The notes beneath the pieces are model-generated. The model searched no databases and was not told where the DNA came from. It saw only the letters and a list, made by a program, of their open reading frames with translations. The position numbers were made by a program, and so were the translations under genes. This document shows positions 10,632 through 53,528 of a stretch of 53,528 nt of DNA, piece by piece (within the stretch, counting starts at the first letter, position 1; every line of letters begins with the position of its first letter). This DNA comes from Candidatus Flavonifractor merdipullorum (GTDB taxonomy: Bacteria; Bacillota; Clostridia; Oscillospirales; Oscillospiraceae). The stretch is from the NCBI GenBank assembly GCA_019114165.1, contig DXGA01000106.1, forward strand, positions 1 to 53,528, given 5' to 3'.

Positions 10632-11078
10632 TCAGCGTTTTTCCGTTCCACTTTGGGAATTATCCCGTAAGACCTCCAGCGCGGCCTGCAAAAAGGCAGG
10701 ATATGGGACTCCCATCAGCCCAAGGTTTTCCAGAATGGACAAGCCCTCGTTGGCGGTAAAAAAGAGGATGACCGCCGTGCGTGCATACGCGCCGCCGCCC
10801 AGGGCTCCGTCCAGGCGGTTGGCCACCAAAACCAGCAGCAGCTCCGCCCCCTTGCGTACCAGGCCCAAAAACCCGGCCCGGCTGTCCAGCGCGCCGCTCT
10901 CACTTTTTCCCGAGCGGTGGAAGATACCGGCCACCATCAGCCCCGTCAGATAATCCACCGCCATGCACCAGACCAGGGTCTCCAGCCCGCCGTCCCACCC
11001 GCCCAGCGCCGCCGCCAGGGCGCTTCCCGCCGCGGACAGTGCCGCCGTCACGCCGCAGCGCAGGTGTATTCCATTCAT
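10632..11078 (-). CDS. Phage holin (toxin secretion/phage lysis holin family)
   Basis: LGGWD..L..L...M.VDY.TG, S..GF.GL.RK, FF.ANEGLSILEN.GLMGVP.P; ATG 11078 overlaps the upstream TGA. Confidence 0.9.
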   Translation of the reverse strand: MNGIHLRCGVTAALSAAGSALAAALGGWDGGLETLVWCMAVDYLTGLMVAGIFHRSGKSESGALDSRAGFLGLVRKGAELLLVLVANRLDGALGGGAYARTAVILFFTANEGLSILENLGLMGVPYPAFLQAALEVLRDNSQSGTEKR

Positions 11079-11665
11079 ACCGCTCCCTCCAGTCGATATC
11101 GCTCCACCATTTTCTCCAGCTCTTCCCAGGTAACGTCCAATCCGTCCAGCACGCTCCATCTGCCGAACCGGGTCTCCATCTCTTCCCAGGTAATGTACCA
11201 GTAGCGGTACTCGATGCCCAGATGGCAGGGGAGAATCTCCTCGATGATGCCTTTCATTTCGTCAAATCCATCGGGAATACCGGGTACATCGGGGAAACGG
11301 ACGGCGATCTCTCCGGGGACCCCGGTCTCTTCAGCCACGGCGTTAAGCCCGCATCCTCTCAGGTTGTCGTTGATGGCCTGAAGGGTAAAGCTGTCGCCGC
11401 CGATGCGCAGCAGCGCGGCCAGCGCGGCCCGCCGGTCCGGCAGGTTTTCCGTCACCGGACGGCGGGTCAGCAGCGCTTCGATCTTACTTAGTCCCCAGCT
11501 CTCAGCGGTCGTCAGCAGCATTTCCCGCTGGACCTGGGCCAGCTCGTCGCCGCACTGGTCCAGCGCCTCGCCGGCGGCTGTCAGCGCTCCGCCGTTGAGG
11601 CTCCCCTCCAGCCGGTAAACCCCCATGGGTTCCAGAAGGGCTTTCAGGTCCTGCACATAGCTCAT
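11075..11665 (-). CDS. Baseplate wedge/tail protein (YmfQ/DUF2313/XkdU-like)
   Basis: Follows baseplate J; TAESWGL..IE, RRAAL, ILPCHL motif. Confidence 0.75.
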   Translation of the reverse strand: MSYVQDLKALLEPMGVYRLEGSLNGGALTAAGEALDQCGDELAQVQREMLLTTAESWGLSKIEALLTRRPVTENLPDRRAALAALLRIGGDSFTLQAINDNLRGCGLNAVAEETGVPGEIAVRFPDVPGIPDGFDEMKGIIEEILPCHLGIEYRYWYITWEEMETRFGRWSVLDGLDVTWEELEKMVERYRLEGAV

Positions 11666-12726
11666 GCGTCCCCCTCCATTTCGGTGATGCTGAGGTTGCC
11701 CAGCTGGGGAAGGGTATCCGCCCGGGCCATCACGTCGGCGGCAGGGTACAGTACCGTGCAGTTTCCCACCGCCTGGGGCGAAAAGGCCAGTTCGGTCAGT
11801 TTTGCCCGCAGGACGCTCTGCCCCAGCCGGGTGCCGTCAAACCAGGCGCGAATAGCGTTCCGCGCGGCCTCCTGCGCGGCCTGGAGGGTATATCCCTCCG
11901 CCGGCGCAACCGCTACCGATACATCCACCGTCTCCAGTTCCGGGCCTCTCACCTCCACCTCCACGGCGATCTCCCGCCGCTGGGCAAAGTGGGCGCGCAA
12001 GGTCTCCAGCAGGTCTTCCCCCGGAGTTCCCTGCGCGGTGGAGACCACCACGTCCACCGTCCCCACGCCTCTGCTTCTGGGGATGACGGCGGCGGCGGCC
12101 ACCTGGGGAAAAGAGAGAGCCTCCTGCTGATAAAAGGCGGCGTTTGCGCCGTTGGGCATCCGGCGGTAGGTCTCCAGCACCCGCTGCCGGAGAACCTCAT
12201 CCTCTTCCGCGTCGGCGCCGCCGGAAAAGGCCTCCGGATTGACGCACCCGCTAATCCCCACCGGGGCCACCGCCATGGTGAGGATGGAACCGGCGGCGGC
12301 ATTGCCGCTCTCCCCCGGTTCCAAAGCGCGAGCGGGCACATCCACCGTGCTGCTTCCCTCTTCCAGAAGGCCTTCTTCGGTGGTCTCGAAGCGGACCAGG
12401 CCCGCCGTCATGCAGACGGTCCCGGCGGGGATGGTCAGAGCGGCGGGGGCCGGTCCGTCGCTGAGAAAGCGGATGACCCCCTGGGCCGTGGACGCGCCCC
12501 GCCGCTCGATGCCCCGCAGCTGGGCGTGGAGGTCCAGATACTCCCCCTGGGCGCTCTGGGGGAAGCACTGCCGGGTGATCCACTCTCCCTGTACATAGAG
12601 CCCGTAGATTTGGGCGGCCACGGCGTAAAACCGCACCGCAAGATCGCTGCTGCCTGTGGTCTCCACGCCGGTCTCAGCCTGAAACCGGGCCAGCATCTGG
12701 GCATAGATCTCCTCAATGGTTTTCAA
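11662..12726 (-). CDS. Baseplate J-like protein (Mu gp47/XkdT)
   Basis: AQGEYLDLHA..RGIER, TIPAGT, PGESGN, GGADAEEDEVLRQR, RGVGTVDV. Confidence 0.92.
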   Translation of the reverse strand: MKTIEEIYAQMLARFQAETGVETTGSSDLAVRFYAVAAQIYGLYVQGEWITRQCFPQSAQGEYLDLHAQLRGIERRGASTAQGVIRFLSDGPAPAALTIPAGTVCMTAGLVRFETTEEGLLEEGSSTVDVPARALEPGESGNAAAGSILTMAVAPVGISGCVNPEAFSGGADAEEDEVLRQRVLETYRRMPNGANAAFYQQEALSFPQVAAAAVIPRSRGVGTVDVVVSTAQGTPGEDLLETLRAHFAQRREIAVEVEVRGPELETVDVSVAVAPAEGYTLQAAQEAARNAIRAWFDGTRLGQSVLRAKLTELAFSPQAVGNCTVLYPAADVMARADTLPQLGNLSITEMEGDA

Positions 12727-12738
12727 GATATTCCCCCT

Positions 12739-13086
12739 TTACAGTGTGGTCTCCAACGTCAGATTGTCCCCGTTCCAGCGCAGAAAGACGGACAGTCTGG
12801 TCTGTCCGCCCTCTTCTTCCAGTGCAACGCCGGTCACCTCCAGCCCTTCCTCATCGGCCAGGGCCTCGGTGACATACTGTCTTGCCAGAGCGGTTCTGCC
12901 GCCCGGCTTTTCCCTTGTCAGCGCGGAGAGGCGGCTGCCCAGCTCAGGCAGGAAGGGGAAGCTCCCTCTCAGGATACAAAGCTTCCACAAAACCCGCTGA
13001 AGCAGGGCTTCCGCCCCTTCCACCCGGCAAAATCCGCCGGAGCCGTCGGGCACATAATCGCCGTTTCGTATCATCAGTTCCGTCAT
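12739..13086 (-). CDS. Baseplate wedge / sheath initiator (gp25/gp46/XkdS-like)
   Basis: Size, position before baseplate J, RGSFPFLPELGSRL..L motif. Confidence 0.72.
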   Translation of the reverse strand: MTELMIRNGDYVPDGSGGFCRVEGAEALLQRVLWKLCILRGSFPFLPELGSRLSALTREKPGGRTALARQYVTEALADEEGLEVTGVALEEEGGQTRLSVFLRWNGDNLTLETTL

Positions 13087-13458
13087 TCACATTCCTCCCG
13101 GCTGGATGTCCTGCCCGTTGAACCGGAGGGCGGTCCCCCGGATCTCTACGGAACCGTCTGCCCGCAGGCGGATGGCCGCGCCGCCGGGGGTGGAGATGGC
13201 GACCTCGCCGGGCTCCAGCCCTTCCTCACACCGGGCGCCGGCCACACACAGGGTCTCGCCGGCGTTTCCGGCTTTGAGGACCAGCACTTCCTGATGGAGG
13301 GCGGGCCGCCAGCAATAGCCGCCCGGCCCAAAGACGGGCAGCGCCCGCCGTTCACCGTCCAGATAGACCGCCGCCGGATTGCCGGACACGGTCACTTCTC
13401 CCAGCCGGGCGTGGTCCTGTACCGATCCCGCCGCCCGGCCCTGACGTGAAAGCCACAT
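13087..13458 (-). CDS. Short baseplate spike-like protein (Mu gp45/gpV/XkdR position)
   Basis: P.G....P...EVLV N-terminal part, then LEPGEVAI....GAAIRL..DGSVEI beta-strand segment; lies between hub and wedge. Confidence 0.65.
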   Translation of the reverse strand: MWLSRQGRAAGSVQDHARLGEVTVSGNPAAVYLDGERRALPVFGPGGYCWRPALHQEVLVLKAGNAGETLCVAGARCEEGLEPGEVAISTPGGAAIRLRADGSVEIRGTALRFNGQDIQPGGM

Positions 13459-13473
13459 AAAAGTTCTCCTTTC

Positions 13474-14412
13474 TCAGGGCGTCCCCAGCACCAGCGTGCT
13501 GGAAGCGCCTTCTTCGTTCCAGCTGCATTCCATTTCCCGCACGCTCCACCGCCCGCCGCAGCCCGGCCATTGGTCGCTGACGGTGACCAGCTCGCCGGGC
13601 CAGGCGGGAAAAAGTTCCGTCAGGCTGACTTCCAGCCGCCGCGCCTCTTCGGCGGAGCGCTCCAGCTGATACCGGGCGGAATAGCGCATGGCCTCATAGC
13701 CGGTCTTGTTGGGCATGGTGAGGACCTTTCTGCTCTGTCCGCCCCGGGCGGTAAAATCGGCGTCCTGTACCGTCTGAGTGATTTTCCCGGCGGTATCCCG
13801 CACAAAGATCTGGGAATAACGCCCGTACCGCTGCTCGCGCAGGGTCAGAGAGGTAACAGCGGTATCCGCGCCCAGGGTGTACCCTCCGCTCTGGGGGAGC
13901 GGACTGAGGATAAGCCGTCCCATCCGGTCAAAGCGTGGGGAGATGCCGCCGTAGCAGCGTGCAAAGCGCTCCACCACCTGCCACTCGCTGCTCCCCGTGT
14001 CCACCGAGAAGGGGGAAACGGCGGGAAAAGTTCCCCGCTCCCCCACCGTGATCCCATAGGGGGTCACATGGTCTCGCAGGATGTCGTCCAGAGTGGCCAC
14101 CTGGTAGTCCGCCCCCACCGCCTCATTGTCCAGCAGCAGGGCGGCCATTCCTCTTCCCCGGATCATCAGCCTGGTCCCGTTGCCGTCCCGGCAGCTCTCA
14201 CACTCATCCACCACGCCGGTAAAAACGGTCTGGTCCTTCCACACCCCACGAAACCGTGTAAATTGGGCCAGCAGATCGGCTCGAACGCCGTCCCACAGGG
14301 CGCATACTTCAAAGCTGTCGCAGGGGGAGCCCAGGCCGTAGCACAGCCGCCATTCATAGAGCTGGGGCAGCTGATACTCGCTCCCGTCCCAGCAAGTGAG
14401 AAAACCTGTCAT
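13474..14412 (-). CDS. Baseplate hub protein (Mu gp44/XkdQ/P2 gpD-like)
   Basis: PCDSFEV, VFTGVVDE, IRGRGMAALLLD, PGELVTV; position after the LysM gene. Confidence 0.78.
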   Translation of the reverse strand: MTGFLTCWDGSEYQLPQLYEWRLCYGLGSPCDSFEVCALWDGVRADLLAQFTRFRGVWKDQTVFTGVVDECESCRDGNGTRLMIRGRGMAALLLDNEAVGADYQVATLDDILRDHVTPYGITVGERGTFPAVSPFSVDTGSSEWQVVERFARCYGGISPRFDRMGRLILSPLPQSGGYTLGADTAVTSLTLREQRYGRYSQIFVRDTAGKITQTVQDADFTARGGQSRKVLTMPNKTGYEAMRYSARYQLERSAEEARRLEVSLTELFPAWPGELVTVSDQWPGCGGRWSVREMECSWNEEGASSTLVLGTP

Positions 14413-14984
14413 TGGACCCGCACCTTCTCTCCGATGTGGATGAGGTTTGGGTTCTTGATCTGGGGATTGAGGGCAATGAGGTCATGGAGGGGGATGCCGT
14501 AGTCCACCGCAATGGACCAGAGGCTTTCCCCCTTGACTACCGTATGGTAGCGGGTAGCGGAGACGGCGGTCTGCTGATTCAGACCGCCGGTGCTGCCGGT
14601 CTGGGTAACGGCGGTGAGTCCGGTTTTGTGGCCGGTAAAATCCTCCCAGAAGGTAAAGGAGTAGGCCACATAATCCTTTCTGGGCTCCTGCCGGAGGGAG
14701 AGGTCCACAAAATAGGCACTGGCGCACTGCCAGACGGGATGGACCAGCATACCGGGTCCGTTTGCGTAGAAGACGGAGGCCAGTTTTTTGAACTCCTCAT
14801 AGGCCCCCGGACCGGTAAACTCCCCTTCTCCCCGCATGATGCGCCGGGTGGGGCCCAGATCCTGCAGGGCGTAGCGTCCGAAGGGGATTTTCCGCACGCT
14901 CATCACCCGCTGATATTCAATGGTGTACGTTCTGGGATTGTGGGGCCAGACGTAGGTTTTATAGCGCATGGGACTGAGATTCAC
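14409..14984 (-). CDS. Tail tube initiator with C-terminal LysM domain (XkdP/Mu gp41-like)
   Basis: C-terminal LysM YHTVVKGESLWSIA..YG....LIALNPQIKNPNLIHIGEKV; QDLG...R and GMLVHP N-terminal motifs. Confidence 0.85.
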   Translation of the reverse strand: MNLSPMRYKTYVWPHNPRTYTIEYQRVMSVRKIPFGRYALQDLGPTRRIMRGEGEFTGPGAYEEFKKLASVFYANGPGMLVHPVWQCASAYFVDLSLRQEPRKDYVAYSFTFWEDFTGHKTGLTAVTQTGSTGGLNQQTAVSATRYHTVVKGESLWSIAVDYGIPLHDLIALNPQIKNPNLIHIGEKVRVQ

Positions 14985-15001
14985 GCCATCCCTCCGTTCT
15001 T

Positions 15002-15493
15002 TTAGTATAGGCGGAACGCGCCGTCATAGCGTCTTGCGTCCACCTCCATCTGCCGGTCCAGTTGGGCCAGGGTGAGCCGCTGCTGTTCTCCCCCTTCCCG
15101 GGAGAGAGAAACGGTGCGCTCCAGTGTCCGGCTGCTGCGGCTCACGGCCTGCCCGGTGCGCCGGAGGGCGCGGTAGAGGAGCGCCGCCGGGGCGGCTTGA
15201 TTCCGGGTCTGGTCCGGTGCGTCCATATCCTGCTTTTGAGAAACAGAAGGCAGGTTTTGTTTACGCTCACCCACCACGGCAGCCTGCCATACCGATCCGT
15301 TTCCGGTCAGACGAAACGTAGAGAAGACCGGCGGTTCTTCCTGTCCGCCTTCTGCCCGGTCTTCCCGTTTTCCGGGGGTTCCATCAGAGACCTGCTTTTT
15401 TTCCACCGGAACCGGATGGACGGTGGAAAGCTCCATGGTCTCCGTTTCTTCCTCCTGCTGCTCCAGCAGGAGAACTTCCAGATAATCGGTCAC
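15002..15493 (-). CDS. Hypothetical protein in the tape-measure position (putative very short tape measure protein)
   Basis: Only ORF between the tail chaperone and the LysM initiator; 163 aa; function assigned by gene order alone. Confidence 0.5.
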   Translation of the reverse strand: MTDYLEVLLLEQQEEETETMELSTVHPVPVEKKQVSDGTPGKREDRAEGGQEEPPVFSTFRLTGNGSVWQAAVVGERKQNLPSVSQKQDMDAPDQTRNQAAPAALLYRALRRTGQAVSRSSRTLERTVSLSREGGEQQRLTLAQLDRQMEVDARRYDGAFRLY

Positions 15494-15785
15494 GGTCTTC
15501 CCCCCTTGCTGAGGATTTCATAGCGTTTTTCATCAAAGGCGGCATTCTGTCCGCCTTCGCCGCCCGATTTCAGCCCGCCGCAGACCGGGCAGCGGTCCTC
15601 CACGGCGTGCATCCTGCAAGTGGGGCACAGCTGATCCAGTACCTCCTCGTCGTCCAGCATAAGATTGAGGGCGCACCAGAGGTAATCCCGGTTTTTCATC
15701 CGGCGTGCCCGTTCCTCGGTGGGCAGCACGCCGAAGGCGCGGAGCACGCGCCAGCGCAGCCGTTCCTCCGGCGCGTGCTCCAGAC
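15490..15785 (-). CDS. -1 frameshift extension of the tail assembly chaperone (gpGT-like), carrying CPTC/CPVC motifs
   Basis: Frame is open from the slippery A7 run through SLEHAPEERLRWRVLRAFGVLP... to the stop at 15490; no convincing RBS of its own. Confidence 0.72.
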
Positions 15786-16133
15786 TTTTTTTAGCTGTTG
15801 GACCGCCTCCTCTCCGCAGTCCGGCCCGGGATTTTCCTCCCGGTCAAAGTCGGACCAGATTTTGCTCAGCGTCCCGATCTCCCTTGGGGTCAGCGCGTCC
15901 AGCACAGCCCCGCCGTCGGCAAAGAGAGGGCCATGTGCTCCCTCCAGTGCTCTGGCCAGAAGGGCGGCGTTGCGGCAAAGGGCGGTCTCACCCCGGGACT
16001 GGGCCAGCAGATCTCCTTCTCTTCTGGCCTCCAGCACCTCCCGGGCGGAGAGGAGCCGGAGCTGCCGCCCGCCGGTCAGCATCAGCGCCTGAGCCCCGGC
16101 GGAGAGAACGGTCCAGGACATCTCCCCGCTCAT
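15696..16133 (-). CDS. Tail assembly chaperone (gpG/XkdN-like)
   Basis: Follows the tube gene; LRLLSAREVL, LTPREI motifs; LKK encoded by CTA AAA AAA. Confidence 0.72.
   Translation of the reverse strand: MSGEMSWTVLSAGAQALMLTGGRQLRLLSAREVLEARREGDLLAQSRGETALCRNAALLARALEGAHGPLFADGGAVLDALTPREIGTLSKIWSDFDREENPGPDCGEEAVQQLKKVWSTRRRNGCAGACSAPSACCPPRNGHAG
15741..15792 (-). promoter_or_regulatory. Programmed -1 ribosomal frameshift signal
   Basis: Slippery A AAA AAA (15792-15786), 4-nt spacer, then hairpin GGAGCACGCGCC...GGCGCGTGCTCC (12 perfect bp, 15781-15741). Confidence 0.8.
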
Positions 16134-16519
16134 GCGCCGGTCTCAATGCGCTTGGCGGCCACCACGGTGATTTTCTCCACCACCATAGCGCCCAGCGCGC
16201 CGGTTTCGCTGATGTCCCTCCACTGACAGCCGGAGTAGATGATCTTCCGGTCGGGCTTGCAGATGACCAGACTGAAGTCAGCCAGGCTGTGGAAGTCCAC
16301 CCCGTCCCGGATGGCCTCATCAGTGGCATAGAGCCGGGTCAGCTCGATCACATGGGTCCGCTGCCCGGGGATGGTGGCCACCGGCTCCTCCTCGCCGAAT
16401 GCCTCCACGGTCTGACTGGTCCTGGTGGTTTTGGCGGCATAGCTCTGGACGACGGCCACTTTTTTGCCGTCGATCTCCAGATAGATGTCGCTGCTGGTGG
16501 GAAAACCCGCCACACCCAT
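16130..16519 (-). CDS. Tail tube protein
   Basis: 129-aa beta-rich protein directly after the sheath gene. Confidence 0.75.
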   Translation of the reverse strand: MGVAGFPTSSDIYLEIDGKKVAVVQSYAAKTTRTSQTVEAFGEEEPVATIPGQRTHVIELTRLYATDEAIRDGVDFHSLADFSLVICKPDRKIIYSGCQWRDISETGALGAMVVEKITVVAAKRIETGA

Positions 16520-16532
16520 ACGTTTTCCTCCT

Positions 16533-17570
16533 TTACACGGTAATGTGGGCCGTCAGCCAGATCTGGTTGAGGCCGTGGGTCACGGTGAAGGAGAACTCCA
16601 CCAGACACACGGTGGGGTTCTCGCTGTCGGCGGTGACGGCGACGTCGCTATACCCGGTGATGATCTCCCGGCTGAGCTTATTCTCCAGCTCCATTACCAC
16701 CTGGGAACGAATGGCGCCCCGGGTCTGCTGGGTGTTTTTGGCGCGCTGGAACCGGGCCCGGAGAGACTGGCGGATGGTGGGGATCACATCGTCCACAATG
16801 AGGATGGTGTTCAGCTCCCGCCAGGTGGCGTCTTCCGCCTCGCCGGTCTTGGTGCGGGTGGTAACGCCCCGCACCACCGAAATGGCGCCCGCCACTTCTT
16901 CCAGAGGGGTTACGCCCCCACGAACCAGCACGTCGATCTCGCTGTCGGCATACCGGGCGCTCAGCCCGGAGAGGCCGGAGAGTACCGCGCCGCTCAGGGG
17001 GACGGCGGGATCGCGTTCCCCGGCAATGGTCCCTGCCACCGCGGCGGCGATCCGTCCGGCGGAGCCTTCCGGCTCGGGCGGGGCAACCAGTACCACCCGC
17101 TCAGAGTTGATCTCCTGGGCCAGCTGGGCCAGTTCCGCGGCGCTCTTGCCGGCGGGCGCGCCCACCACGGCGATGCGCTCCCGCCTTGCCTGGGAGGATT
17201 CGGCCACGCTGTCCCGCAGCGCCTGCCATACGGCGATGTCGGTGCTGTCGCACACCTGAATGTCGATCCCTTCCGTCCCGGCCAGCAGGGCGAAGGCGTC
17301 GGTGTAATCATCCTCCGCCACCGGTACGGCGTACACCGCGCCCGCGCCATTGCGGAAAAGAAGGGTTACCAGTTCGGTCATGGCGTCGCCGGGGCCGAAG
17401 ATCGTCTCCGCCTCTTCCCACCGGCTGAATCTATAAAGGCGCCCAGCTTCTCCGGCGGCGCTTTTGGCGGCCAGACCCACGGTCTTGCTGCCGCCGCCGG
17501 AGCGAATGAGGGACGAGGCGTCGTAGGTAGAATAGACGCCGGGCCGCTCATGATTGGTCACATGGTTCAC
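16533..17570 (-). CDS. Contractile tail sheath protein
   Basis: N-terminal RPGVY, RERIAVV, GGVTPL, VVRGVTT, NT..TR..IRS, C-terminal F.V...LNQI.L. Confidence 0.9.
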   Translation of the reverse strand: MNHVTNHERPGVYSTYDASSLIRSGGGSKTVGLAAKSAAGEAGRLYRFSRWEEAETIFGPGDAMTELVTLLFRNGAGAVYAVPVAEDDYTDAFALLAGTEGIDIQVCDSTDIAVWQALRDSVAESSQARRERIAVVGAPAGKSAAELAQLAQEINSERVVLVAPPEPEGSAGRIAAAVAGTIAGERDPAVPLSGAVLSGLSGLSARYADSEIDVLVRGGVTPLEEVAGAISVVRGVTTRTKTGEAEDATWRELNTILIVDDVIPTIRQSLRARFQRAKNTQQTRGAIRSQVVMELENKLSREIITGYSDVAVTADSENPTVCLVEFSFTVTHGLNQIWLTAHITV

Positions 17571-18063
17571 ACTTCATGTCTCCTTTCACCTCAAAGTCCA
17601 GGAAGGAACCGTCTTCCCGCCGGACGGCATAGAGCATGGCGTCGTAGACGGCCTGAGCGGGGCAGCGGTAGCGCCGTTCCTGCCGGTCGAAGGTGGTCTC
17701 ACCGCAGGAAACATTCTGAAGACGCAGCCCTTCCGGCCCACCCTTGTGGAGTACAGCGGTGAGCAGATCGAAGGCGGTACGCACCCCTTCTTCTCCGCTG
17801 CCCATGGCGGCGTAGAGGTCCAGCCCGATGGTAAGGCGCACCCGCTGGCCGTACAGCTCCTGCCAGCTCTGGCTGTCGCCCTCCCAGATCTGGCCCAGAT
17901 AGTTGGAAAATCCGGCGGAGGAGCTGTCGCACTGGCGGAGGGAGACCACCACCACCGGCTCCTCCGTGGTGCGCCCCGCCATGGGGAAGGCGCACAGGGC
18001 GGAGATGCCCTGTGCCTCCAGATAGTCCCGCATTTTTTCGCGTATGGTGTCCAGTCCGGTCAT
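17548..18063 (-). CDS. Neck / tail terminator-like protein
   Basis: Position before the sheath gene; ATG 18063 behind GGAGG, overlapping the upstream stop. Confidence 0.55.
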   Translation of the reverse strand: MTGLDTIREKMRDYLEAQGISALCAFPMAGRTTEEPVVVVSLRQCDSSSAGFSNYLGQIWEGDSQSWQELYGQRVRLTIGLDLYAAMGSGEEGVRTAFDLLTAVLHKGGPEGLRLQNVSCGETTFDRQERRYRCPAQAVYDAMLYAVRREDGSFLDFEVKGDMKCEPCDQS

Positions 18064-18389
18064 ACCTCCTCCTCTCCGGGCACGAGGACGGCCCACCAGT
18101 GGCTGACTGCATCCCCAATGTAGATGGGCTGGGCCTGTACCACGTCATAGCGTATCCCGCCGCACCGCACCTGATCGTCTCCCGCTTTTACGGGAAGAGA
18201 ACCGCTTCCCAGATAGAGGAAGCGGTCTTCCCGCCTGATGCCCAGCGGGGTGGGCAGATTCTGGAGGGTGTCGGTGCTGCGGATGGGCTGTACGAACGCG
18301 TAATCCTCCACACAGCTCCCATCCGCCCGGCGGAGGGTAATGGGCTGCCCGTAGCGCCGGAGGAGAGCGGAGATGGCGCCGCGGTTCAT
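18060..18389 (-). CDS. Head closure (stopper)-like protein
   Basis: 109 aa; YGQPITLRR N-terminus, GDDQV..GG.RY.V; canonical position. Confidence 0.62.
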   Translation of the reverse strand: MNRGAISALLRRYGQPITLRRADGSCVEDYAFVQPIRSTDTLQNLPTPLGIRREDRFLYLGSGSLPVKAGDDQVRCGGIRYDVVQAQPIYIGDAVSHWWAVLVPGEEEV

Positions 18390-18727
18390 CCCCTCACCCC
18401 CCGAAAGGCAAAGCGGACGTCCCGGAGATAGGGCCTTAACACCTCTTCGGCCATCTGCCGCAGGTTCTGAGGCTTGCTTCCGCCGGTCTCCACGGTGAGA
18501 TCACCGGCGGAAAAGCGCGCCACAGTTTGGACGCCCTCCAATCCGGCCAGCGCGGTCCAGGCCGCAGCAATGCAAAAGGCAGAAGCGCAATCCTGCGGGG
18601 AAACGCCCTCTTTCAGCCGTCCGGCCCATTCAAGCTGTGCGGCCCTGACCAGCGTACGCAGCTGTTGGGACTCGCTGACCTGACCCAAGGCCACCGCCAG
18701 AGCCAGGATCTCTTCCTCCATGTCCAT
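18386..18727 (-). CDS. Head-tail connector (adaptor)-like protein
   Basis: Follows the capsid gene; helical, FSAGDLTV hairpin, ..L.PYL C-terminus. Confidence 0.65.
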   Translation of the reverse strand: MDMEEEILALAVALGQVSESQQLRTLVRAAQLEWAGRLKEGVSPQDCASAFCIAAAWTALAGLEGVQTVARFSAGDLTVETGGSKPQNLRQMAEEVLRPYLRDVRFAFRGVRG

Positions 18728-18728
18728 A

Positions 18729-19766
18729 TCAGTCCCCCAGCTTGAGGACCTTGGCCGCGCCGGTGAAGAGCTTGGCAAAGCCGGAGATGGAGGTGATGGC
18801 GGCCCGTTCCAGCTGACGGTCGATGAGCTTATCGTACTCCACCGTCACGTCGCTGCCCTTGACCATTTCCAGGGCGTAATTCTTGTCCAGACCGATGAGG
18901 GTGCCGCTTGCCAGGGCGGAGGTGCGCAGGAGCTTGGCCCCCAGGGGAGTGGCCAGCTGACCGGTGCCCTGGAAGTTGAGACCGGTGAGGGGGTCCTGGA
19001 ACTCGGGCATTTTGAGGAGGGCGCGCATCATATCGCCCGAGACCAGCAGGGTGTTCATCTCGTAGGGATGGAACTGGGCCCAGAAATCCACCAGATCATC
19101 GTAAGTGAGGGTACCGGCGGAGCCGCCAATGGGCTCCTGCCCCACGGTGAAGGTGTCGGCGGGGTTTTTGTTGCCGTCGCCGTTGATGAGCACATCGATG
19201 GCGTCCTCCAGGTGCATCCGGTTGATGTGGGCGCCGATCTGGCGGAGGGTGACGGAGAAGAGGTCCAGCTTCTGATAGCGGATGGCCTCATAGGAGGCCA
19301 CCAGCATGCGGCCCCGCTTGTGGAGGCGGACCAGATTTTCCTGGGTCTTGACCTGGGTCTGGGGGAGGACGGAGCCCTCTTCCACGAAGCGCAGGCGCTT
19401 TTCGTCGTCGTCGGGAACAGAGGTGATGGAGCGGTAATCCAGACCGTCGAAGCGGGTGACGGCGGCGGTGATGTGGGGGATGAGGTCGCTCTCCTCCATG
19501 CCCTGCCGGACGGAGCGGGCCACATACTCGGGGAAGAGGACGGCGGACTGGGCGGTGGAGAAGAACTTCTCCACCACGTCGGAGCCTTCGCCCCGCACCT
19601 TGATGTCAAAGCGCTTGAGCTGGCGCTGGTAGGCGTCCAGGCCCTCCAGGTCGGTACCCTTGTAGCGTTCGGAGGGATCTTCCCGTTCCAGCACCTGGGT
19701 AAAGGTGCGCCCGGCCTCGTTGTACATCCCCTTTTCCAGTCTGAGATTGTCGTAGCGGTAAGCCAT
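18729..19766 (-). CDS. Major capsid protein (HK97 fold)
   Basis: LFPEYV, FVEEGSVLP (E-loop), KRGRML..SYEAI, GDG, LG.KL..T..L; 345 aa; position after protease and decoration genes. Confidence 0.88.
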   Translation of the reverse strand: MAYRYDNLRLEKGMYNEAGRTFTQVLEREDPSERYKGTDLEGLDAYQRQLKRFDIKVRGEGSDVVEKFFSTAQSAVLFPEYVARSVRQGMEESDLIPHITAAVTRFDGLDYRSITSVPDDDEKRLRFVEEGSVLPQTQVKTQENLVRLHKRGRMLVASYEAIRYQKLDLFSVTLRQIGAHINRMHLEDAIDVLINGDGNKNPADTFTVGQEPIGGSAGTLTYDDLVDFWAQFHPYEMNTLLVSGDMMRALLKMPEFQDPLTGLNFQGTGQLATPLGAKLLRTSALASGTLIGLDKNYALEMVKGSDVTVEYDKLIDRQLERAAITSISGFAKLFTGAAKVLKLGD

Positions 19767-19793
19767 AGCAGTACTCCTTTCGTGTGTGGGTGA

Positions 19794-20138
19794 TTAGAGC
19801 AGGATGACGGCGGTCTGGGCGTCGGCGTCGGTCTGGACCACCAGATAGGGAGTGCCCGCGCCTTCGTCGGCCTTCATGCCGCCGGAGCCGTCGGCGGAGA
19901 GCTTGACCCAGCCGGTGGTGGAAACACCGGCAGCCTTGACGGCGATAAAGCCGGACAGCTGCACCGAGGCAAAGCCGTCCCGCACCACCACGGCCATACC
20001 GGCAATGCGCTCCCCGGCGGCGCAGGGGGCCACGGTGCTGTCGTTGCTGACCTTGACCACCTGGCCCATTTTGACGGTCTCGCCGCACTGGAAGGTGGCC
20101 ATCATCTGGCCCACGCCCTCATAGGAAATGGATTTCAT
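19794..20138 (-). CDS. Capsid decoration/cement protein (DUF2190-like)
   Basis: 114 aa; GQVVKV, G.A......ASVQLSG; between protease and capsid genes. Confidence 0.65.
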   Translation of the reverse strand: MKSISYEGVGQMMATFQCGETVKMGQVVKVSNDSTVAPCAAGERIAGMAVVVRDGFASVQLSGFIAVKAAGVSTTGWVKLSADGSGGMKADEGAGTPYLVVQTDADAQTAVILL

Positions 20139-20166
20139 AGTGTACCTCCTTAAAAAGTGTTCCGTA

Positions 20167-21051
20167 TCAGATCAGGAAGGGGTCATCCCGTTCCTGCTGT
20201 CGGGTGGTGTTGTCCCACAGCTGGGGCCCGTCGGGGCAGAGCTTGCGGGCCTGCATCTCGTAGACCTTGCGCAGGTTTTCCAGTTCATCTTCCTCCAAGC
20301 GGCCTGCGATGGCGGTCAGTACCTCGTGGCGCAGCTCGGGCTGGACCATGCCGCCCAGCCGTACCACTTCCTTGCGGAGGGCGGAGAGGTACCGCCGTCC
20401 GGTCTGGGCTTCCCGCTCCAGCTGTTCCAGGCGATCCATTTTCATACCTTTGATAACTCCGGCGTTGACCTGAGCGGGCACCGCCACAAAGGACCACTCG
20501 TAGGCGTCGGTGGCGTCCAGCAGCTCGGCCCAGCAGCGCTTTCCGTCATAGACGCGGCCTTTCACATGGGCGCAGCTCTCCCGGTCATGGATGTCTGCGC
20601 CGCAGATGGAGCAGACCGCTCTGGATACGCTGCACCCCACGGAGACCTCCTTTTTGATGCCCCCTTCAATCTCGGCAATGAGGGAGGCGCTCTCGGGGGT
20701 GCGCAGCATATAGGCCCAGCCCTTCAGGTAGCAATAGGGGTCTCCGGCGGTGGTGTACAGCTTAGGCTCTTCCACCAATTCGGTACGGTAGATGCGTCCC
20801 ACCTGTTCTCTGGCGCTCCAGTTGTGGTCAAAGATACCGCACTTGCCCACAAAGAGGGGGGCCAGCTGTTCCAGGGTTTCTCTGGGGAAGCGCTCGTGGT
20901 CCCGGTCCACCTCGTTGTCGCACAGGCGCACGCAGAAGACATAGACGTCCTCCGCCTTGAGACTGGTGTGATTGAGGGCGTTGAGCGCGTCCAGCTCCTC
21001 CTGGGCGGGGATACCGGCGGCGCCGCTTCCCGCTTCTTTGATTTTCTTCAT
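20167..21051 (-). CDS. Prohead protease with C-terminal scaffold region
   Basis: DRDHERF, FDHNW, I.GGIKKEVSVG (catalytic Ser region), EWSFVAVPA; CSIC...CAH insertion; helical C-terminus. Confidence 0.8.
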   Translation of the reverse strand: MKKIKEAGSGAAGIPAQEELDALNALNHTSLKAEDVYVFCVRLCDNEVDRDHERFPRETLEQLAPLFVGKCGIFDHNWSAREQVGRIYRTELVEEPKLYTTAGDPYCYLKGWAYMLRTPESASLIAEIEGGIKKEVSVGCSVSRAVCSICGADIHDRESCAHVKGRVYDGKRCWAELLDATDAYEWSFVAVPAQVNAGVIKGMKMDRLEQLEREAQTGRRYLSALRKEVVRLGGMVQPELRHEVLTAIAGRLEEDELENLRKVYEMQARKLCPDGPQLWDNTTRQQERDDPFLI

Positions 21052-21064
21052 GGATCATCCTCCT

Positions 21065-22231
21065 TTAGCCCTTTATCTGGGCCATATTCTGTCTGATCTG
21101 CTCTTCCTGGGCCCGATAGAGCCCGGCTCTGGCCTCTTCCACCAGGTCCTGCAAGCTGATGTCGTCCCAAATGATCTCCACCCACGGCTCAAATCCGTGG
21201 ACCCGCAGCCACCACTCGCAGATTCTTTCCACCACCGGCTCCAGGTTGCGCCGGAGTGCGGTGAGCTCACTGGTCAGCATATCGGCCTGCTGGGTGCTCA
21301 TCCGCTCGGTGGAGGACCAGGAGAGACCCAGTAAAAAGGGAGGCACACCGGTGCGTGCCACCAGCTGCTCTAAAATCTGCCGTACAGGGACCTCACTGTC
21401 CAGGATCTGGTTGTCCGCGCCGATGACCTTGATGTCCACATCGCCCACGGCCACGAAATCCCGGACGCTCCCCTCTTTTCCGGCCTGCATGGCGGCGGAC
21501 CACTCCCGGGCGATCTGCTGGCTGCGTTCCTGGGCATAGGCCCGGTCCAGGCTGTCGTTACCGGGCTTGTAGACCACGGCAAAGCGGACGTTGCCCATCC
21601 GTTCCCAGTTCATCCCCATGGCCTGATAGATTTTCAGCAGCACGCCGGTGAGAAATGGCATACTGCGCAGGAGGGACACGCCGTAAGGACTGCCGCTCTC
21701 TGGCTGAAAGGGGGTGAAGAGGATCAGGTCCTGTTGGGGGAGGGGCTGGACGGTGCCGTCTCCCTTTCGGAGACAGAGGGTCATATCCAGCGGAGAGGGC
21801 CCTTCCCGGATCTCAAGCAGCGCGGGGTCGCCGCAGAGGAGGGCGGCCACATCCTTTTTGTCGGCAGAGAGGACGATCTCTCCCACCGCCCGTCCGCAGG
21901 TGAGCATGGAATCCAGATAAGCGTCCAGAAAGGACTGTAATCCCCGCTGTCCTCTGCCGGTGCTGACGGTGCGGAGGAAGTGGTCCATTCCCTTTTGCGC
22001 GGCGGGGTCGGAAGTTCTGACGCGGACGCCGCCGGTGAGGCGTATGAGCTTCAAAATGGCGGCGTCCACAATGGGAACCGCCTCCCGGATACTGCGGTAA
22101 AGGGCCATCTCTCCATTTCTCAGGGGCACATAGCCGTCCAATGCGCCGAAGGGATGGCGCTGGCTGTCCCGGAGCTGTGCCTGAACAGCTTTGGTGACAG
22201 ACGGTTGTTTTTTGCGGTCAAACCAACCCAA
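21065..22231 (-). CDS. Portal protein
   Basis: Position after TerL; PIVDAAI, G.AVGEIV, PYGVSLL, GVPPFLLG; TTG start behind AGGAGG. Confidence 0.85.
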   Translation of the reverse strand: MGWFDRKKQPSVTKAVQAQLRDSQRHPFGALDGYVPLRNGEMALYRSIREAVPIVDAAILKLIRLTGGVRVRTSDPAAQKGMDHFLRTVSTGRGQRGLQSFLDAYLDSMLTCGRAVGEIVLSADKKDVAALLCGDPALLEIREGPSPLDMTLCLRKGDGTVQPLPQQDLILFTPFQPESGSPYGVSLLRSMPFLTGVLLKIYQAMGMNWERMGNVRFAVVYKPGNDSLDRAYAQERSQQIAREWSAAMQAGKEGSVRDFVAVGDVDIKVIGADNQILDSEVPVRQILEQLVARTGVPPFLLGLSWSSTERMSTQQADMLTSELTALRRNLEPVVERICEWWLRVHGFEPWVEIIWDDISLQDLVEEARAGLYRAQEEQIRQNMAQIKG

Positions 22232-22251
22232 AGTTGGGTTCCTCCTTTCTT

Positions 22252-23508
22252 TTAAAAGATGTTTCGTTCCACAAAGCCCACGCCGAAGGGCTGCCGGTGT
22301 TCTCTTGCCGCCACGGTGACGGCAAAATACCGGATCTCATCCATGGCGTGGTCGTACTCCTTGCGCACCCTGTCGCCCTTTGCCCTGGTGTCCCAGCAAT
22401 AGCGGGAAAACTCCCGCATGCTGTCCTCGCACCCCTGACAGATGACCAGCTTTCCCTCCCGCAGCAGCTGGGCGGTGGTGCGTATGCCGGAGAGCACGTC
22501 GTTCTCCGCCTTGACCACCCGCCACCCCTCCCGCCGGAGGGTCTCAATAAAGCTGGCGGCGGAGGGGTCGGCCACCACCAGTTCCACCGGCCGGTCACCG
22601 GCGAGACGCCGGAGGTCGGCGGCATATTCTCCGTCGGTTTTCTGCCTACCCTCCCGTCTGGAGTCGTAATAATACTCCTTGACCCGGTACCAGATGCCGT
22701 TGTTCCGTCCCCACAGTCCAAAGGAAGCGGGGTTGACGGTGCCGTAGTCGCAGGAGATGCACCACCGCTCCATGGGGCCGGGCGGGACGGGCTTGCGCCA
22801 GCTTTCATCGAAGAAGTCGTAGACCAGGCCTTCCGCGGCGGCCCACTCTCCCAGGACGAAGCGGCGGTAGAAGGTACCGCTGTAACTGCGGGCATAGCGC
22901 TCGATGATGTCGGGGGTGAGGGCGGGGTTATCCGCCATGGTAAAGTGGAGATAGAGGACCTTGTGCTCCTCCTGCTTGCAAATCCACTCCTTGTAAAACC
23001 AGTGTTCCGGACCTTCCGGGTTGCAGGAAAACCAGAGGCGGCTGCCGGGGACGGAGCACCGGGCCAAAGCCTGTTCCACGAAGGAGCGGGGCATCAGGGC
23101 CACCTCATCCAGCAGGACGCCGGCCAGGGTCACGCCCTGGATAAGAGCGGCGGAGCTTTCGTCTCTGCCGCCGAAGAGGTGGAAGGTATTTTCCCGCTTT
23201 CCAAAGGAGACGGTAATCAGATTCTGGCTGAGTTTTTCCGTACATCGGAAGCCCAGCTGCCGCAGGGCAGGCAGGAGGGAACGAATGAGGTTGCGCCGGA
23301 GGGAGATCACGGTTTTGCCGCACACGCCGAAGGCGCAGCCGTGGAAGCGGGCCATGGCCCAGCAAAAGAAGGAAAGGCCGGTGCACAACGTCTTTCCCGA
23401 GCGGACCGCGCCGTCACAGATGATGGCTTCTCTGTCCTTCCAGGGAGAAGTCTCGCACCACCAGGTAAGGACGGCGCGCTGTTTGGGGGAAAAGGGCTCA
23501 AACTGCAT
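22252..23508 (-). CDS. Terminase large subunit (PBSX-type)
   Basis: Walker A DGAVRSGKT, Walker B VLLDE, NP coupling region, nuclease acidic motifs CDYG, DPSA, DHAMDEIRY. Confidence 0.95.
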   Translation of the reverse strand: MQFEPFSPKQRAVLTWWCETSPWKDREAIICDGAVRSGKTLCTGLSFFCWAMARFHGCAFGVCGKTVISLRRNLIRSLLPALRQLGFRCTEKLSQNLITVSFGKRENTFHLFGGRDESSAALIQGVTLAGVLLDEVALMPRSFVEQALARCSVPGSRLWFSCNPEGPEHWFYKEWICKQEEHKVLYLHFTMADNPALTPDIIERYARSYSGTFYRRFVLGEWAAAEGLVYDFFDESWRKPVPPGPMERWCISCDYGTVNPASFGLWGRNNGIWYRVKEYYYDSRREGRQKTDGEYAADLRRLAGDRPVELVVADPSAASFIETLRREGWRVVKAENDVLSGIRTTAQLLREGKLVICQGCEDSMREFSRYCWDTRAKGDRVRKEYDHAMDEIRYFAVTVAAREHRQPFGVGFVERNIF

Positions 23509-23803
23509 TCTGGGTGCTTCCCCCATTCTCCAGTGCCTGGAAGAAAGCGGCGGCCTGCCCGTCGGGGTCTTCGGAGAGCTCCAGGGCTTTCTCGGCCAGG
23601 CGGAGCCGGTCTACGAAGCGGACTTCCGCCCCGCCCTTGTCGCTTCTGCGGAACTCCTCCAGCAGGGTAAGGTCGAGGGTGTCGATGGTATCCAACTGCT
23701 GGGGGCTGAGAAAGGCCAGTTTGACGCCGTCATTGGGACGGCTTCTGGCCAGACGCTTGAGCATGCTGCGGGCGATATCTGCCCCGGACTGTTCTTTTCG
23801 CAT
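23498..23803 (-). CDS. Putative terminase small subunit, short (about 101 aa)
   Basis: Overlaps the TerL start; LKRLA...GAEVRFVDRLRLAE resembles the TerS oligomerisation region; start ATG 23803 or 23809 behind AAGGAGGTG. Confidence 0.62.
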   Translation of the reverse strand: MRKEQSGADIARSMLKRLARSRPNDGVKLAFLSPQQLDTIDTLDLTLLEEFRRSDKGGAEVRFVDRLRLAEKALELSEDPDGQAAAFFQALENGGSTQNAV

Positions 23804-23854
23804 TTGCATCTCACCTCCTTGTGGTTTCAATGTAAGGCGACCCGGGGTGAGATT

Positions 23855-23872
23855 TTGCACGTTTGGATGCAA
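23855..23872 (-). promoter_or_regulatory. Dyad motif TTGCA-TCCAAACG-TGCAA upstream of the phage-like operon
   Basis: Inverted 5-bp arms; 17/18 identical copy at 53459-53476 at a similar distance from a start codon. Confidence 0.6.
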
Positions 23873-23890: not shown

Positions 23891-23926
23891 AAAAAAGCCT
23901 CCCGTGCGCGTATGCGCACAGGAGGC
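23891..23926 (-). terminator. Intrinsic terminator of the ispE operon
   Basis: GCCTCCTGTGCGC-ATAC-GCGCACGGGAGGC-TTTTTT on the minus strand. Confidence 0.85.
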
Positions 23927-24201
23927 TAGGCTGTCGATAAAGTGTATTTCTATGATTTATGCTGCAAGTATGCTGCAAGGGCCTCGCAGAGTTCCGCCGT
24001 CCGCAGACGGTGGAAGAGGGTCGAATCGTGTTTTCCGGCGGCGTGTACGTCGGAAAACACTCCGCTCAGCCCACAAGCGTACGCGCTTTGCGCGTGCGAC
24101 GCAGTGGGCTGCATCCCCTCGAAAAAATGCTTGCATTTTTGAGAAGCGTGTCGAAGTTTTTCGACACGCTGACCTCCCGTGCGCGTATGCGCACAGGAGG
24201 C
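23898..24201. repeat. 29-bp direct repeat (23898-23926 and 24173-24201), probable target-site duplication
   Basis: CCTCCCGTGCGCGTATGCGCACAGGAGGC present twice, identical. Confidence 0.92.
23927..24172. mobile_element. 246-bp non-coding MITE-like insertion
   Basis: Bounded by the 29-bp duplication; imperfect inverted ends (AGGCTGTCGATAAA / TTTTTCGACACGCTG); five internal hairpins; no transposase. Confidence 0.7.
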
Positions 24202-50591: not shown

Positions 50592-50592
50592 C

Positions 50593-53517: not shown

Positions 53518-53528
53518 ATGGCAAGTTA
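53518..53528 (+). CDS. Start of an unknown gene (M-A-S-Y/stop...), cut by the window edge
   Basis: AAAGGAGG RBS with appropriate spacing to ATG GCA AGT. Confidence 0.55.

What the first reader, a model, noticed from the sequence alone, without database searches (positions are those of the whole stretch)
10632..23803. Candidate gene transfer agent: an intact, minimal head plus contractile-tail operon with no phage life-cycle genes
Seen: 21 ORFs on one strand over 13.2 kb, many coupled by ATGA-type overlaps, with no obvious stops or frameshift damage. They cover DNA packaging, capsid, neck, sheath and tube, baseplate and holin. The operon starts just after the ispE terminator and ends just before the MATE promoter, leaving no room for integrase, repressor, replication, recombination or cargo genes. 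I saw no att repeats, and base composition looks host-like. Established: structural-only clusters of this size in core-gene context are the architecture of RcGTA-type agents, and B. subtilis PBSX is a replication-defective myophage that packages host DNA. Tailocins and eCIS lack terminase, portal and capsid. Inference: this is a domesticated DNA-packaging particle with a contractile tail in a Clostridia-like host. I know of no characterised GTA of this kind there, but I cannot check the literature.
Basis: partly seen in the sequence, partly recalled or inferred. Interest (0 to 1): 0.93.

Follow-up and report, generated by a model that had tools for sequence, protein, structure and literature searches.

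The report
Host-kept contractile-tail gene transfer particle
Many gut Oscillospirales bacteria have inherited, intact and in step with their own family tree, a 13-kb set of phage head and contractile-tail genes with no replication or integration genes, which likely builds short-tailed particles that package host DNA, possibly during spore formation.

Summary
Confirmed. The 21 ORFs are intact and encode terminase, portal, capsid, neck, sheath, tube, baseplate and holin, with no integrase, repressor or replication genes. The host is an Oscillospiraceae member close to Pseudoflavonifractor. The capsid gene is in 12 of 12 genus genomes and 130 of 300 family genomes, as one locus each. Its head-gene tree shares 47 of 51 splits with RpoB across five families, and dN/dS is 0.04-0.44 by module. 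Against a related complete prophage, the tape measure has shrunk from 822 to 163 residues. The small terminase lacks its N-terminal DNA-binding region, as in RcGTA. A conserved palindrome upstream also precedes a tail-fibre-slot gene (starting at the window's end) and an amidase elsewhere in the genome. The promoters loosely resemble late mother-cell sporulation promoters. Domestication is strongly supported; particles, packaged DNA and gene transfer are untested. PBSX-like killing remains the main rival. It is not FpGTA, and five literature searches found no description.

The parts
23896..23927 (-). Intrinsic terminator insulating the operon from ispE
   Evidence: 14-pair hairpin plus T run
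23850..23872 (-). Conserved palindromic operator/promoter box, consensus TGYACG-N4-CGTRCA followed by ACTTTT
   Evidence: 65 of 85 terS upstream regions match 13 or more of 19 positions; shuffles mean 1.7, max 6
23498..23803 (-). Small terminase, 101 aa, lacking the N-terminal ~55 residues
   Evidence: 160-206-aa orthologues hit PF03592 and phrog_51; alignment shows the missing N-terminus
22252..23508 (-). Large terminase (PBSX-family model TIGR01547)
   Evidence: Walker A GKT/S, Walker B DE and nuclease aspartates kept in 54 of 54
21065..22231 (-). Portal protein
   Evidence: phrog_30703 E 2e-162
20167..21051 (-). Probable prohead protease/scaffold
   Evidence: phrog_16951 unknown; nearest named Atlas clusters are PF04586 prohead proteases at 0.89, a lead only; position
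19794..20138 (-). Head decoration/structural protein
   Evidence: phrog_4588
18729..19766 (-). Major capsid protein
   Evidence: phrog_3922, PF25209; weak HK97 model TIGR01554 below cut-off, no N4-type hit
18386..18727 (-). Probable head-tail adaptor
   Evidence: position and conservation only
18060..18389 (-). Probable stopper
   Evidence: position and conservation only
17548..18063 (-). Probable tail terminator
   Evidence: phrog_25177 unknown; position
16533..17570 (-). Contractile tail sheath, minimal 345-aa form
   Evidence: PF04984 and PF17482; model pLDDT 89, best fold matches phage 812 sheath and diffocin CD1363, TM 0.77 and 0.71
16130..16519 (-). Tail tube
   Evidence: phrog_27038 and phrog_985; position after sheath
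15696..16133 (-). Tail assembly chaperone
   Evidence: position; overlaps the next ORF in the -1 frame
15786..15792 (-). Slippery A7 heptamer, predicted programmed -1 frameshift
   Evidence: slippery heptamer in 46 of 54 loci with both parts (46 of the 47 with a -1 offset; 7 are in-frame fusions)
15490..15747 (-). Chaperone frameshift extension (TAC2)
   Evidence: weak match at the same slot in prophage G645
15002..15493 (-). Miniature tape-measure-slot protein, 163 aa
   Evidence: conserved C-terminal motif; length tracks tail type; same slot holds an 822-aa PF10145 tape measure with a similar C-terminus in G645
14409..14984 (-). LysM tube initiator (baseplate hub 1 type)
   Evidence: PF01476, PF07157; phrog_184, phrog_16855
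13474..14412 (-). Baseplate hub
   Evidence: phrog_177, PF22255
13087..13458 (-). Probable baseplate spike
   Evidence: phrog_25991 unknown; position
12739..13086 (-). Baseplate wedge subunit
   Evidence: phrog_975, phrog_43
11662..12726 (-). Baseplate J
   Evidence: PF04865 E 3e-54
11075..11665 (-). Mu Gp48-like baseplate wedge protein
   Evidence: PF10076 below cut-off, phrog_521
10632..11078 (-). Holin
   Evidence: PF05105, TIGR01593
53459..53481 (+). Second copy of the palindromic box
   Evidence: second-best matrix hit in the whole G000 assembly, score 24.8
53518..53528 (+). Start of a 137-aa fibre-slot (DUF7483-like) gene cut by the contig end
   Evidence: last 26 nt of the window equal the first 26 nt of G000:C42 and occur nowhere else; homologues follow the Gp48-like gene in other families

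Best explanation
This is an intact phage-derived structural operon that Oscillospirales hosts have inherited vertically, and it likely builds gene-transfer-agent-like particles: a head predicted to fill with random host DNA, on a predicted very short contractile tail that would inject the DNA into related cells. Shown: gene content, single locus per genome, co-divergence with RpoB, purifying selection, intact terminase motifs, loss of the TerS N-terminus, a shrunken tape-measure slot, and a shared upstream box at the operon, a fibre-slot gene and an amidase. Inferred: an unidentified host-encoded activator binds the box and switches on these scattered genes together; the truncated TerS makes packaging sequence-blind, as proposed for RcGTA; the roughly 160-residue ruler gives a tail of only a few rings; release is by holin plus amidase or by the host's own lysis programme, possibly mother-cell lysis at the end of sporulation. 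With no replication or excision genes the locus cannot propagate itself.
For: Capsid gene in 11 of 11 other genus genomes and 130 of 300 family genomes, one match each except a frameshift-split gene in G049; 35 of 300 order genomes in five families, a sixth family. 50 of 50 fully spanned loci keep ten core genes in order, 11.3-13.7 kb. No integrase or replication initiator among 93 flank proteins. Head tree against RpoB, 54 genomes: 47 of 51 splits shared (random mean 0.18, max 2), distance r = 0.89. dN/dS over 13 pairs: head 0.04-0.31, neck 0.11-0.44, tail 0.07-0.39, baseplate 0.08-0.37. TerL motifs kept in 54 of 54. TerS lacks its N-terminus, the feature described for RcGTA gp1 (PMC6854486, passages). 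RcGTA's tape measure is about 216 residues for five tube rings (PMC7296036, passages). Head and terminase are kept where the sheath is not found, which points to DNA packaging as the selected function. GTA-like packaging of 5.9-kb fragments was reported for an Oscillospiraceae MAG with no locus found (PMC12946183), and uniform VLP coverage for genus NSJ-51 (bioRxiv 10.64898/2026.07.08.737213), while the record of strain NSJ-51 carries the full operon (L044).
Against: No particle, packaged DNA, expression or transfer has been observed; RNA-run contigs cover operon and flanks alike. 170 of 300 family genomes gave no match and several genera are patchy (g43 4/6, g45 3/6, g37 1/6, g47 1/6). Flanking genes differ between genera. 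One well-supported conflict between the trees (L082/L084). Frame breaks in a few assemblies: L034 and L074 baseplate J, L069 sheath, G049 capsid. TerS keeps its N-terminus in basal Oscillospiraceae and most other families, so the truncation is later than domestication. The box precedes only 2 of 10 genus amidases and 4 of 29 fibre-like genes examined. The regulator was not found. PBSX shows that this anatomy can package DNA without delivering it (PMC7667829, passages). An earlier scan note describes a different candidate GTA operon in the same family, so the published packaging signals cannot be assigned to this locus.
Confidence: 0.6

Rival explanations
1. PBSX-like phage-type bacteriocin: the particle packages host DNA as a by-product, and its selected job is to kill related strains with the contractile tail; variable fibre genes set the target range.
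For: Same head-plus-contractile-tail, replication-free anatomy as PBSX, which packages random 13-kb DNA and kills without transfer (PMC7667829, passages). TerL matches the PBSX-family model; the sheath fold is close to diffocin. Fibre-like genes occur in 1-7 matches per genome in the genus.
Against: The sheath was not found genome-wide in 5 of 5 sheath-less carriers tested (no positive control in that call), and tube and wedge genes are missing in further lineages, while terminase, portal and capsid stay. The tape-measure slot is very short. Holin is in the operon in only 4 of 50 fully spanned loci.
Confidence: 0.2
2. A domesticated capsid maker with a role other than gene delivery or killing, for example removing or storing mother-cell DNA during sporulation, decorating spores, or acting as a decoy or interference factor against phages.
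For: Head-only and tube-less forms persist under selection. Promoter spacing resembles late mother-cell promoters. The operon is rarer in genomes where spoIVA was not found, 4 of 25 against 126 of 275.
Against: This window's lineage keeps a complete injection apparatus, including the chaperone frameshift signal and a fibre-slot gene, which a storage or decoy role would not need.
Confidence: 0.15
3. A decaying prophage remnant, or a helper-dependent capsid-forming satellite that moves between hosts.
For: A complete prophage with the same structural gene order and 42-50% identity in capsid, portal, sheath and tube exists in G645. Neighbouring genes differ between genera. Three of the five IMG/VR records searched hold an integrase.
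Against: 47 of 51 splits shared with RpoB, dN/dS far below 1, one locus per genome, host-like codon usage and no att repeats. The integrase next to the operon in G964 belongs to a second prophage with its own terminase, portal, capsid and 1,461-aa tape measure; in G966 it lies about 15 kb away, beyond other genes. The 46.7-kb 'phage' MT835508 is a chromosome piece with rpoA and secY.
Confidence: 0.05

Closest known systems
PBSX of Bacillus subtilis (defective prophage, phage-like bacteriocin)
   Same: Head plus contractile tail without self-replication; TerL matches the PBSX-family model; tail gene order sheath-tube-chaperone-tape measure-LysM-hub-spike-wedge-J (PBSX order recalled, not checked by a call).
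   Different: About 13 kb with no repressor or sigma-like activator at the locus (PBSX's xre/xpf and ~28 kb size recalled); tape-measure slot 163 aa; lysis and fibre genes dispersed; promoter box unlike the genus LexA sites; sheath lost in several lineages.
RcGTA (Rhodobacter capsulatus) and related alphaproteobacterial GTAs
   Same: Compact structural cluster, vertical inheritance, TerS without N-terminal DNA-binding domain (PMC6854486), very short tape measure (PMC7296036), accessory genes at other loci.
   Different: RcGTA has a non-contractile tail and a Gram-negative host; no sequence relationship was tested or seen; transfer is proven for RcGTA and untested here.
FpGTA of Faecalibacterium prausnitzii (PMC12946183)
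   Same: Gut Oscillospirales host, structural-only operon with short TerS, second locus for fibre and lysis genes.
   Different: FpGTA is podovirus-like with an N4-gp56-family capsid protein; this capsid is PF25209/phrog_3922 with no N4-type hit and the operon has sheath and tube.
Temperate myophage lineage represented by the prophage in G645 (L412, L332, L413)
   Same: Same structural gene order; capsid 49%, portal 48%, sheath 42%, tube 50%, baseplate J 32% identical.
   Different: It has integrase, repressor-like regulator, anti-repressor, replication initiator, SSB, RusA, an unrelated TerL, a portal fused to gpF, an 822-aa tape measure and no copy of the box before its late genes.
Diffocins, R-pyocins and eCIS
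   Same: Minimal sheath fold, TM 0.66-0.71 to diffocin, AFP and pyocin sheaths; vertical retention by the host.
   Different: These lack terminase, portal and capsid (established knowledge); here these genes are among the most conserved.

Membership tests
Gene transfer agent | Phage-derived head, packaging and tail genes without replication or integration genes | tested here: met
Gene transfer agent | Vertical inheritance with the host | tested here: met
   47 of 51 splits shared with RpoB, 54 genomes, five families
Gene transfer agent | Purifying selection and intact genes | tested here: met
   dN/dS 0.04-0.44 by module; few frame breaks
Gene transfer agent | Small terminase without the specific DNA-binding domain | tested here: met
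   met in this clade; not met in basal members and most other families
Gene transfer agent | Genes at several loci under host control | tested here: inconclusive
   shared box at three G000 loci; regulator not found
Gene transfer agent | Particles are made and hold random host DNA too short to carry the locus | not testable with these tools
   published VLP signals in the family are not tied to this locus
Gene transfer agent | Packaged DNA is delivered to and recombines in recipients | not testable with these tools
   needs a transfer assay
PBSX-like element | Head plus contractile tail, no autonomous replication | tested here: met
PBSX-like element | Own repressor and late activator at the locus, DNA-damage induction (recalled) | tested here: not met
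   no regulator gene in the operon; box differs from the sites before lexA; induction itself untested
PBSX-like element | Kills non-carrier strains without DNA injection | not testable with these tools
   needs killing assays
FpGTA | N4-gp56-family capsid and podovirus-type short tail | tested here: not met
   sheath and tube present
Tailocin / eCIS | No capsid, portal or terminase | tested here: not met
   all three present and conserved
Active prophage or capsid-forming satellite | Integrase, att sites, replication module, horizontal spread | tested here: not met
Late mother-cell (sigma-K-type) regulon | AC-N16-(C/A)ATAGGAT promoter as before dpaA and cotJA in this genus | tested here: inconclusive
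   close match for the amidase; for terS the score peaks at spacer 16-17 but only 12 of 60 score above zero at 16

The most novel reading that the evidence does not exclude
An ancient, order-wide family of contractile-tailed gene transfer agents that is wired into sporulation: the doomed mother cell switches the scattered genes on through a sigma-K-type promoter plus a palindrome-binding activator, packs its own chromosome into capsids and releases them at mother-cell lysis, so gene donation costs no extra cell death. Lineages then trimmed the tail from full contractile to head-only while keeping the packaging motor.
Probability: 0.3. Interest if true: 0.95.

Novelty: new variant of a known kind. 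Interest (0 to 1): 0.8.

Why it matters
Virus-like particles from human and mouse guts carry short random DNA of Oscillospiraceae and Ruminococcaceae, and for most taxa no responsible genes are known (PMC12946183; bioRxiv 10.64898/2026.07.08.737213). This locus is a concrete candidate present in cultured strains, so the question becomes directly testable. If it transfers DNA it would be a contractile-tailed gene transfer agent in Gram-positive gut bacteria, as old as several families, and a major unrecognised route of gene exchange. The graded tail loss gives a natural series for how a phage is domesticated. A sporulation link would answer why cells pay for lytic gene donation. It also matters for databases: these loci are filed as viruses in IMG/VR and INPHARED.

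Tried and rejected
Expression: four metatranscriptome runs from three studies cover operon and flanks in all 30 bins at similar depth, and contigs cannot exclude DNA carry-over, so this says nothing. Regulator: the 135-aa winged-helix gene behind the box in G006 is in only 9 of 301 family genomes; the predicted late activator of prophage G645 found nothing in 5 genomes (no positive control); LexA control is not supported because regions before lexA carry a different site and score below zero or near zero with the box matrix; no box before dpaA, cotJA or spoIIID, and 1 of 30 spoIVA regions scored above 10. A loose palindrome pattern with one mismatch matched about as often as its reversed control in 5 genomes; only the longer pattern was specific. 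Fibre-slot model (pLDDT 74.5) had no PDB fold match at E <= 0.001. Capsid profile had no PDB sequence match. Atlas look-up of the tape-measure slot did not complete. The first RpoB tree was faulty because antisense frames were picked in some loci and was redone. The CBM5/12 gene found in G000 lies on a short contig with a separate lysis cassette and is not counted as part of this system. The holin found elsewhere in G596 has no box. Contigs laid on the window end run past it but their further letters are not shown, so the join to C42 rests on the 26-nt overlap. Rejected: active prophage, satellite, tailocin, FpGTA orthologue.
Full report
Observation. The minus strand from 23803 to 10632 holds 21 open frames that cover 99.8% of the span, with 7 of 20 junctions overlapping by 4 nt. 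PHROGs, Pfam and NCBIfam name TerL, portal, a head structural protein, capsid, sheath, LysM protein, hub, wedge, baseplate J, a Gp48-like protein and holin; the tube hits phrog_27038 and phrog_985; six frames have no hit. Each gene has one copy in the assembly, which is 83% complete. A terminator at 23927-23896 lies between ispE and the operon, and no sigma-70 consensus promoter was found. GC (63.5% against 63.2%) and codon usage (r = 0.95) match 11 host genes, and no att-like repeat joins the flanks. The operon has no endolysin, no fibre and no long tape measure.

Host and range. The nearest named capsid (93%) is in Pseudoflavonifractor phocaeensis An569, family Oscillospiraceae; 291 genome stretches encode a relative and the best 80 were fetched. 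The capsid gene is in 11 of 11 other genus genomes and 130 of 300 family genomes of at least 90% completeness, one match each except a frameshift-split gene in G049. Many genera are all-or-none, some are patchy (g1 6/6, g39 5/6, g43 4/6, g45 3/6, g37 1/6, g47 1/6, five genera 0/6). In the order it is in 35 of 300 genomes from five families, plus one genome of a sixth. In a class-wide sample the portal matched 6 of 349 other genomes, only one outside the order; one genome was not scored. Among the 80 named loci, the 50 that span terL to the Gp48-like gene with flanks keep all ten core genes in order over 11.3-13.7 kb; 4 of 50 have the holin. Flanks differ between genera and are host genes: 93 flank proteins (56 of 74 cluster representatives and 37 of 118 singletons, chosen for nearness to the operon) gave no integrase or replication initiator; one HTH regulator and the rpsF-ssb-rpsR SSB were the only phage-like hits. 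My gene caller was weak in low-GC loci L072-L077.

Vertical descent and selection. For 54 genomes in five families, a tree of TerL, portal, protease and capsid shares 47 of 51 splits with an RpoB tree; shuffled labels share 0.18 on average and at most 2; patristic distances correlate at r = 0.89; one supported split conflicts. Left out: five genomes with no RpoB match (L055, L062, L068, L089, L099) and L187, cut by a contig end. Nei-Gojobori dN/dS over 13 pairs is 0.04-0.31 for head, 0.11-0.44 for neck, 0.07-0.39 for tail and 0.08-0.37 for baseplate genes, against 0.02-0.14 for rpoB; window against L021 gives 0.10-0.52 per gene; the tape-measure slot and holin were not measured. TerL Walker and nuclease residues are kept in 54 of 54. 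Frame breaks are few: L034 and L074 baseplate J, L069 sheath, G049 capsid. The chaperone pair keeps a slippery heptamer in 46 of 54 loci.

Viral databases. Of 68 IMG/VR loci only 3 contigs exceed 20 kb. Three of five large records searched hold an integrase; in G964 it belongs to a second prophage with its own terminase, portal, capsid and tape measure inserted after the operon. In INPHARED only five unannotated faecal contigs match the capsid above 50%; the largest, which I opened, is a chromosome piece with rpoA and secY. The one out-of-order genome, G645, has a complete prophage with the same structural order, capsid 49% identical, integrase, anti-repressor, replication initiator, an unrelated TerL and an 822-aa tape measure. 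It joins the tree on a long branch between the family groups. With no root this fits one domestication from such a phage, but does not exclude two.

Miniaturisation. TerS is 101 aa; orthologues of 160-206 aa match PF03592 and carry about 55 extra N-terminal residues. Loss of that domain is the feature proposed to make RcGTA packaging random (PMC6854486, passages). The gene in the tape-measure slot is 163 aa here, mostly 147-289 aa in Oscillospiraceae loci with a sheath, about 55-60 aa where only a tube remains and about 40-60 aa where the tube is missing; a C-terminal motif is conserved and resembles the end of the G645 tape measure. RcGTA uses about 216 residues for five tube rings (PMC7296036, passages), so a stubby tail is inferred. 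The sheath model is confident and closest to phage 812 and diffocin sheaths. Across the order the tail is graded from full contractile to baseplate-only to head plus hub; the sheath profile found nothing in 5 of 5 sheath-less genomes (no positive control). On the RpoB tree this implies about four separate sheath losses (my reading).

A dispersed regulon. A palindrome, TGYACG-N4-CGTRCA, lies mostly 55-70 nt before terS in 65 of 85 loci (shuffles 1.7, max 6). A matrix built from these sites finds three clear hits in G000: terS itself (circular), a stand-alone Amidase_2 gene on C76, and a site at window 53459. Only 2 of 1,965 RBS-start regions score 15 or more. The gene after 53459 continues on C42 by a unique 26-nt overlap and encodes 137 aa with weak DUF7483 similarity; its homologues directly follow the Gp48-like gene, the usual fibre slot, in L170, L173-L176, L181, L182, L188, L160, L163 and L164. 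In two Flavonifractor-group genomes the box also precedes a CBM5/12 gene, which ends the operon in other loci, and a RepA_N-type gene. Limits: the box precedes 2 of 10 genus amidases and 4 of 29 fibre-like genes, and the binding protein is unknown.

Sporulation hint. Nine dpaA and cotJA promoters of the genus share (C/A)ATAGGAT, and the five dpaA ones have AC 16 nt upstream; that these are late mother-cell, sigma-K-type promoters is recalled from Bacillus and Clostridioides. Eight of 10 amidase orthologues have the same CATAGGAT. The box's right arm ends in AC, and a matrix from the nine promoters scores 60 terS promoters best at spacers 16 and 17 (mean -5.3, against -6.5 to -14.1 elsewhere), but only 12 of 60 are positive at 16, and the window's own terS site is negative. 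The operon is in 126 of 275 genomes with spoIVA and 4 of 25 without (Fisher p = 0.005, overstated because kin are not independent and five of the 25 are one genus). Holin was not found in 4 of 5 carriers whose operon lacks it. This is suggestive, not shown.

Literature. PMC12946183 (abstract, first part of the text, section 9, passages, supplement 3 part 1 of 2, supplement searches) describes FpGTA as podovirus-like with an N4-gp56 capsid and reports 5.9-kb GTA-like packaging in an Oscillospiraceae MAG without a locus. bioRxiv 10.64898/2026.07.08.737213 (section 12 and passages) reports uniform VLP coverage for genus NSJ-51 and a 12.7-kb candidate cluster in Butyricicoccaceae QXXE01 with a transcriptional activator; I did not see its supplementary gene maps, which could show a relative of this element. 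PMC7667829 (passages) describes PBSX. Searches found no description of this operon; the library omits most subscription papers. The scan itself noted this system, including tail-less forms, in other genomes; these notes are unchecked and are not counted as support.

Verdict. A real, ancient, host-maintained phage-particle system. Domestication is about 95% likely, DNA-filled particles about 85%, gene delivery as the selected function about 60%, PBSX-like killing about 20%. It works like a GTA by anatomy but cannot be filed as one until packaging and transfer are shown. New variant of a known kind; interest 0.8.

Noticed in passing
window 23898-23926 and 24173-24201: Two identical 29-nt hairpin repeats 275 nt apart in the ispE-terS gap; the inner one forms the terminator.
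   Followed up: partly
window 5115-5190 and 5330-5405: Two tRNA-Gly(GCC) genes 5 kb downstream of the operon; their 3' end is not repeated elsewhere in the window.
   Followed up: yes
window 49452-53412: PadR-family regulator followed by three tandem DUF2812 genes, divergent from the fibre-slot promoter.
   Followed up: no
G000:C18, about 4850 (-) and 7900-8071 (+): Two oppositely oriented copies of the same promoter and N-terminus of a fibre-family gene; a box-like palindrome lies upstream of at least one. Possible swapping or inversion locus.
   Followed up: partly
L292, L303, L309, L315 (G009:C4); L291, L304, L310 (G011:C60); G004: Fibre-family paralogues in three to seven matches per genome, clustered on one contig with near-identical 5' ends and no box.
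   Followed up: partly
L406:1561-2043, L407:980-1462, L275:1568-1975: Small winged-helix genes (RepA_N-type in two genomes) directly behind the box; they could drive local run-off replication or regulate the operon in some lineages.
   Followed up: partly
L273, L276, L277 (G006), L269, L274 (G010), L271 (G001): High-scoring box copies with no particle gene behind them, some in direct repeats about 1 kb apart beside what looks like a tRNA end. Unexplained.
   Followed up: no
L265 (G000:C122): 3.5-kb contig with a separate phage-type lysis cassette: holin-like genes, M15 peptidase and a CBM5/12-like gene.
   Followed up: partly
L417-L418 (G964) and L415 (G967): A second, complete non-contractile prophage sits about 140 nt after the Gp48-like gene in a Flavonifractor plautii-like record; IMG/VR merges it with the operon as one 55-kb provirus.
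   Followed up: yes
L369 and L371 (G001:C218, C217): spoIIID is in two pieces on two contigs, split near residue 34-40, which may be an inserted element; G000 has no match over the cut-off.
   Followed up: no
L374 and L378 (G000:C178, C129): Two full-length lexA paralogues over the family cut-off in the window's genome.
   Followed up: no
L098: A record titled Bacteroidaceae carries the sheath-less form seen in L088-L099; probably a mis-binned or mislabelled contig.
   Followed up: no
L247 (MT835508.1): A 46.7-kb INPHARED 'bacteriophage' is a bacterial chromosome fragment carrying a head-only form of the operon.
   Followed up: yes
L068, L070 upstream; L080 downstream: A CHAP-domain endolysin-like gene sits next to the operon (with a holin in L068 and L070), so lysis genes differ between lineages.
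   Followed up: partly
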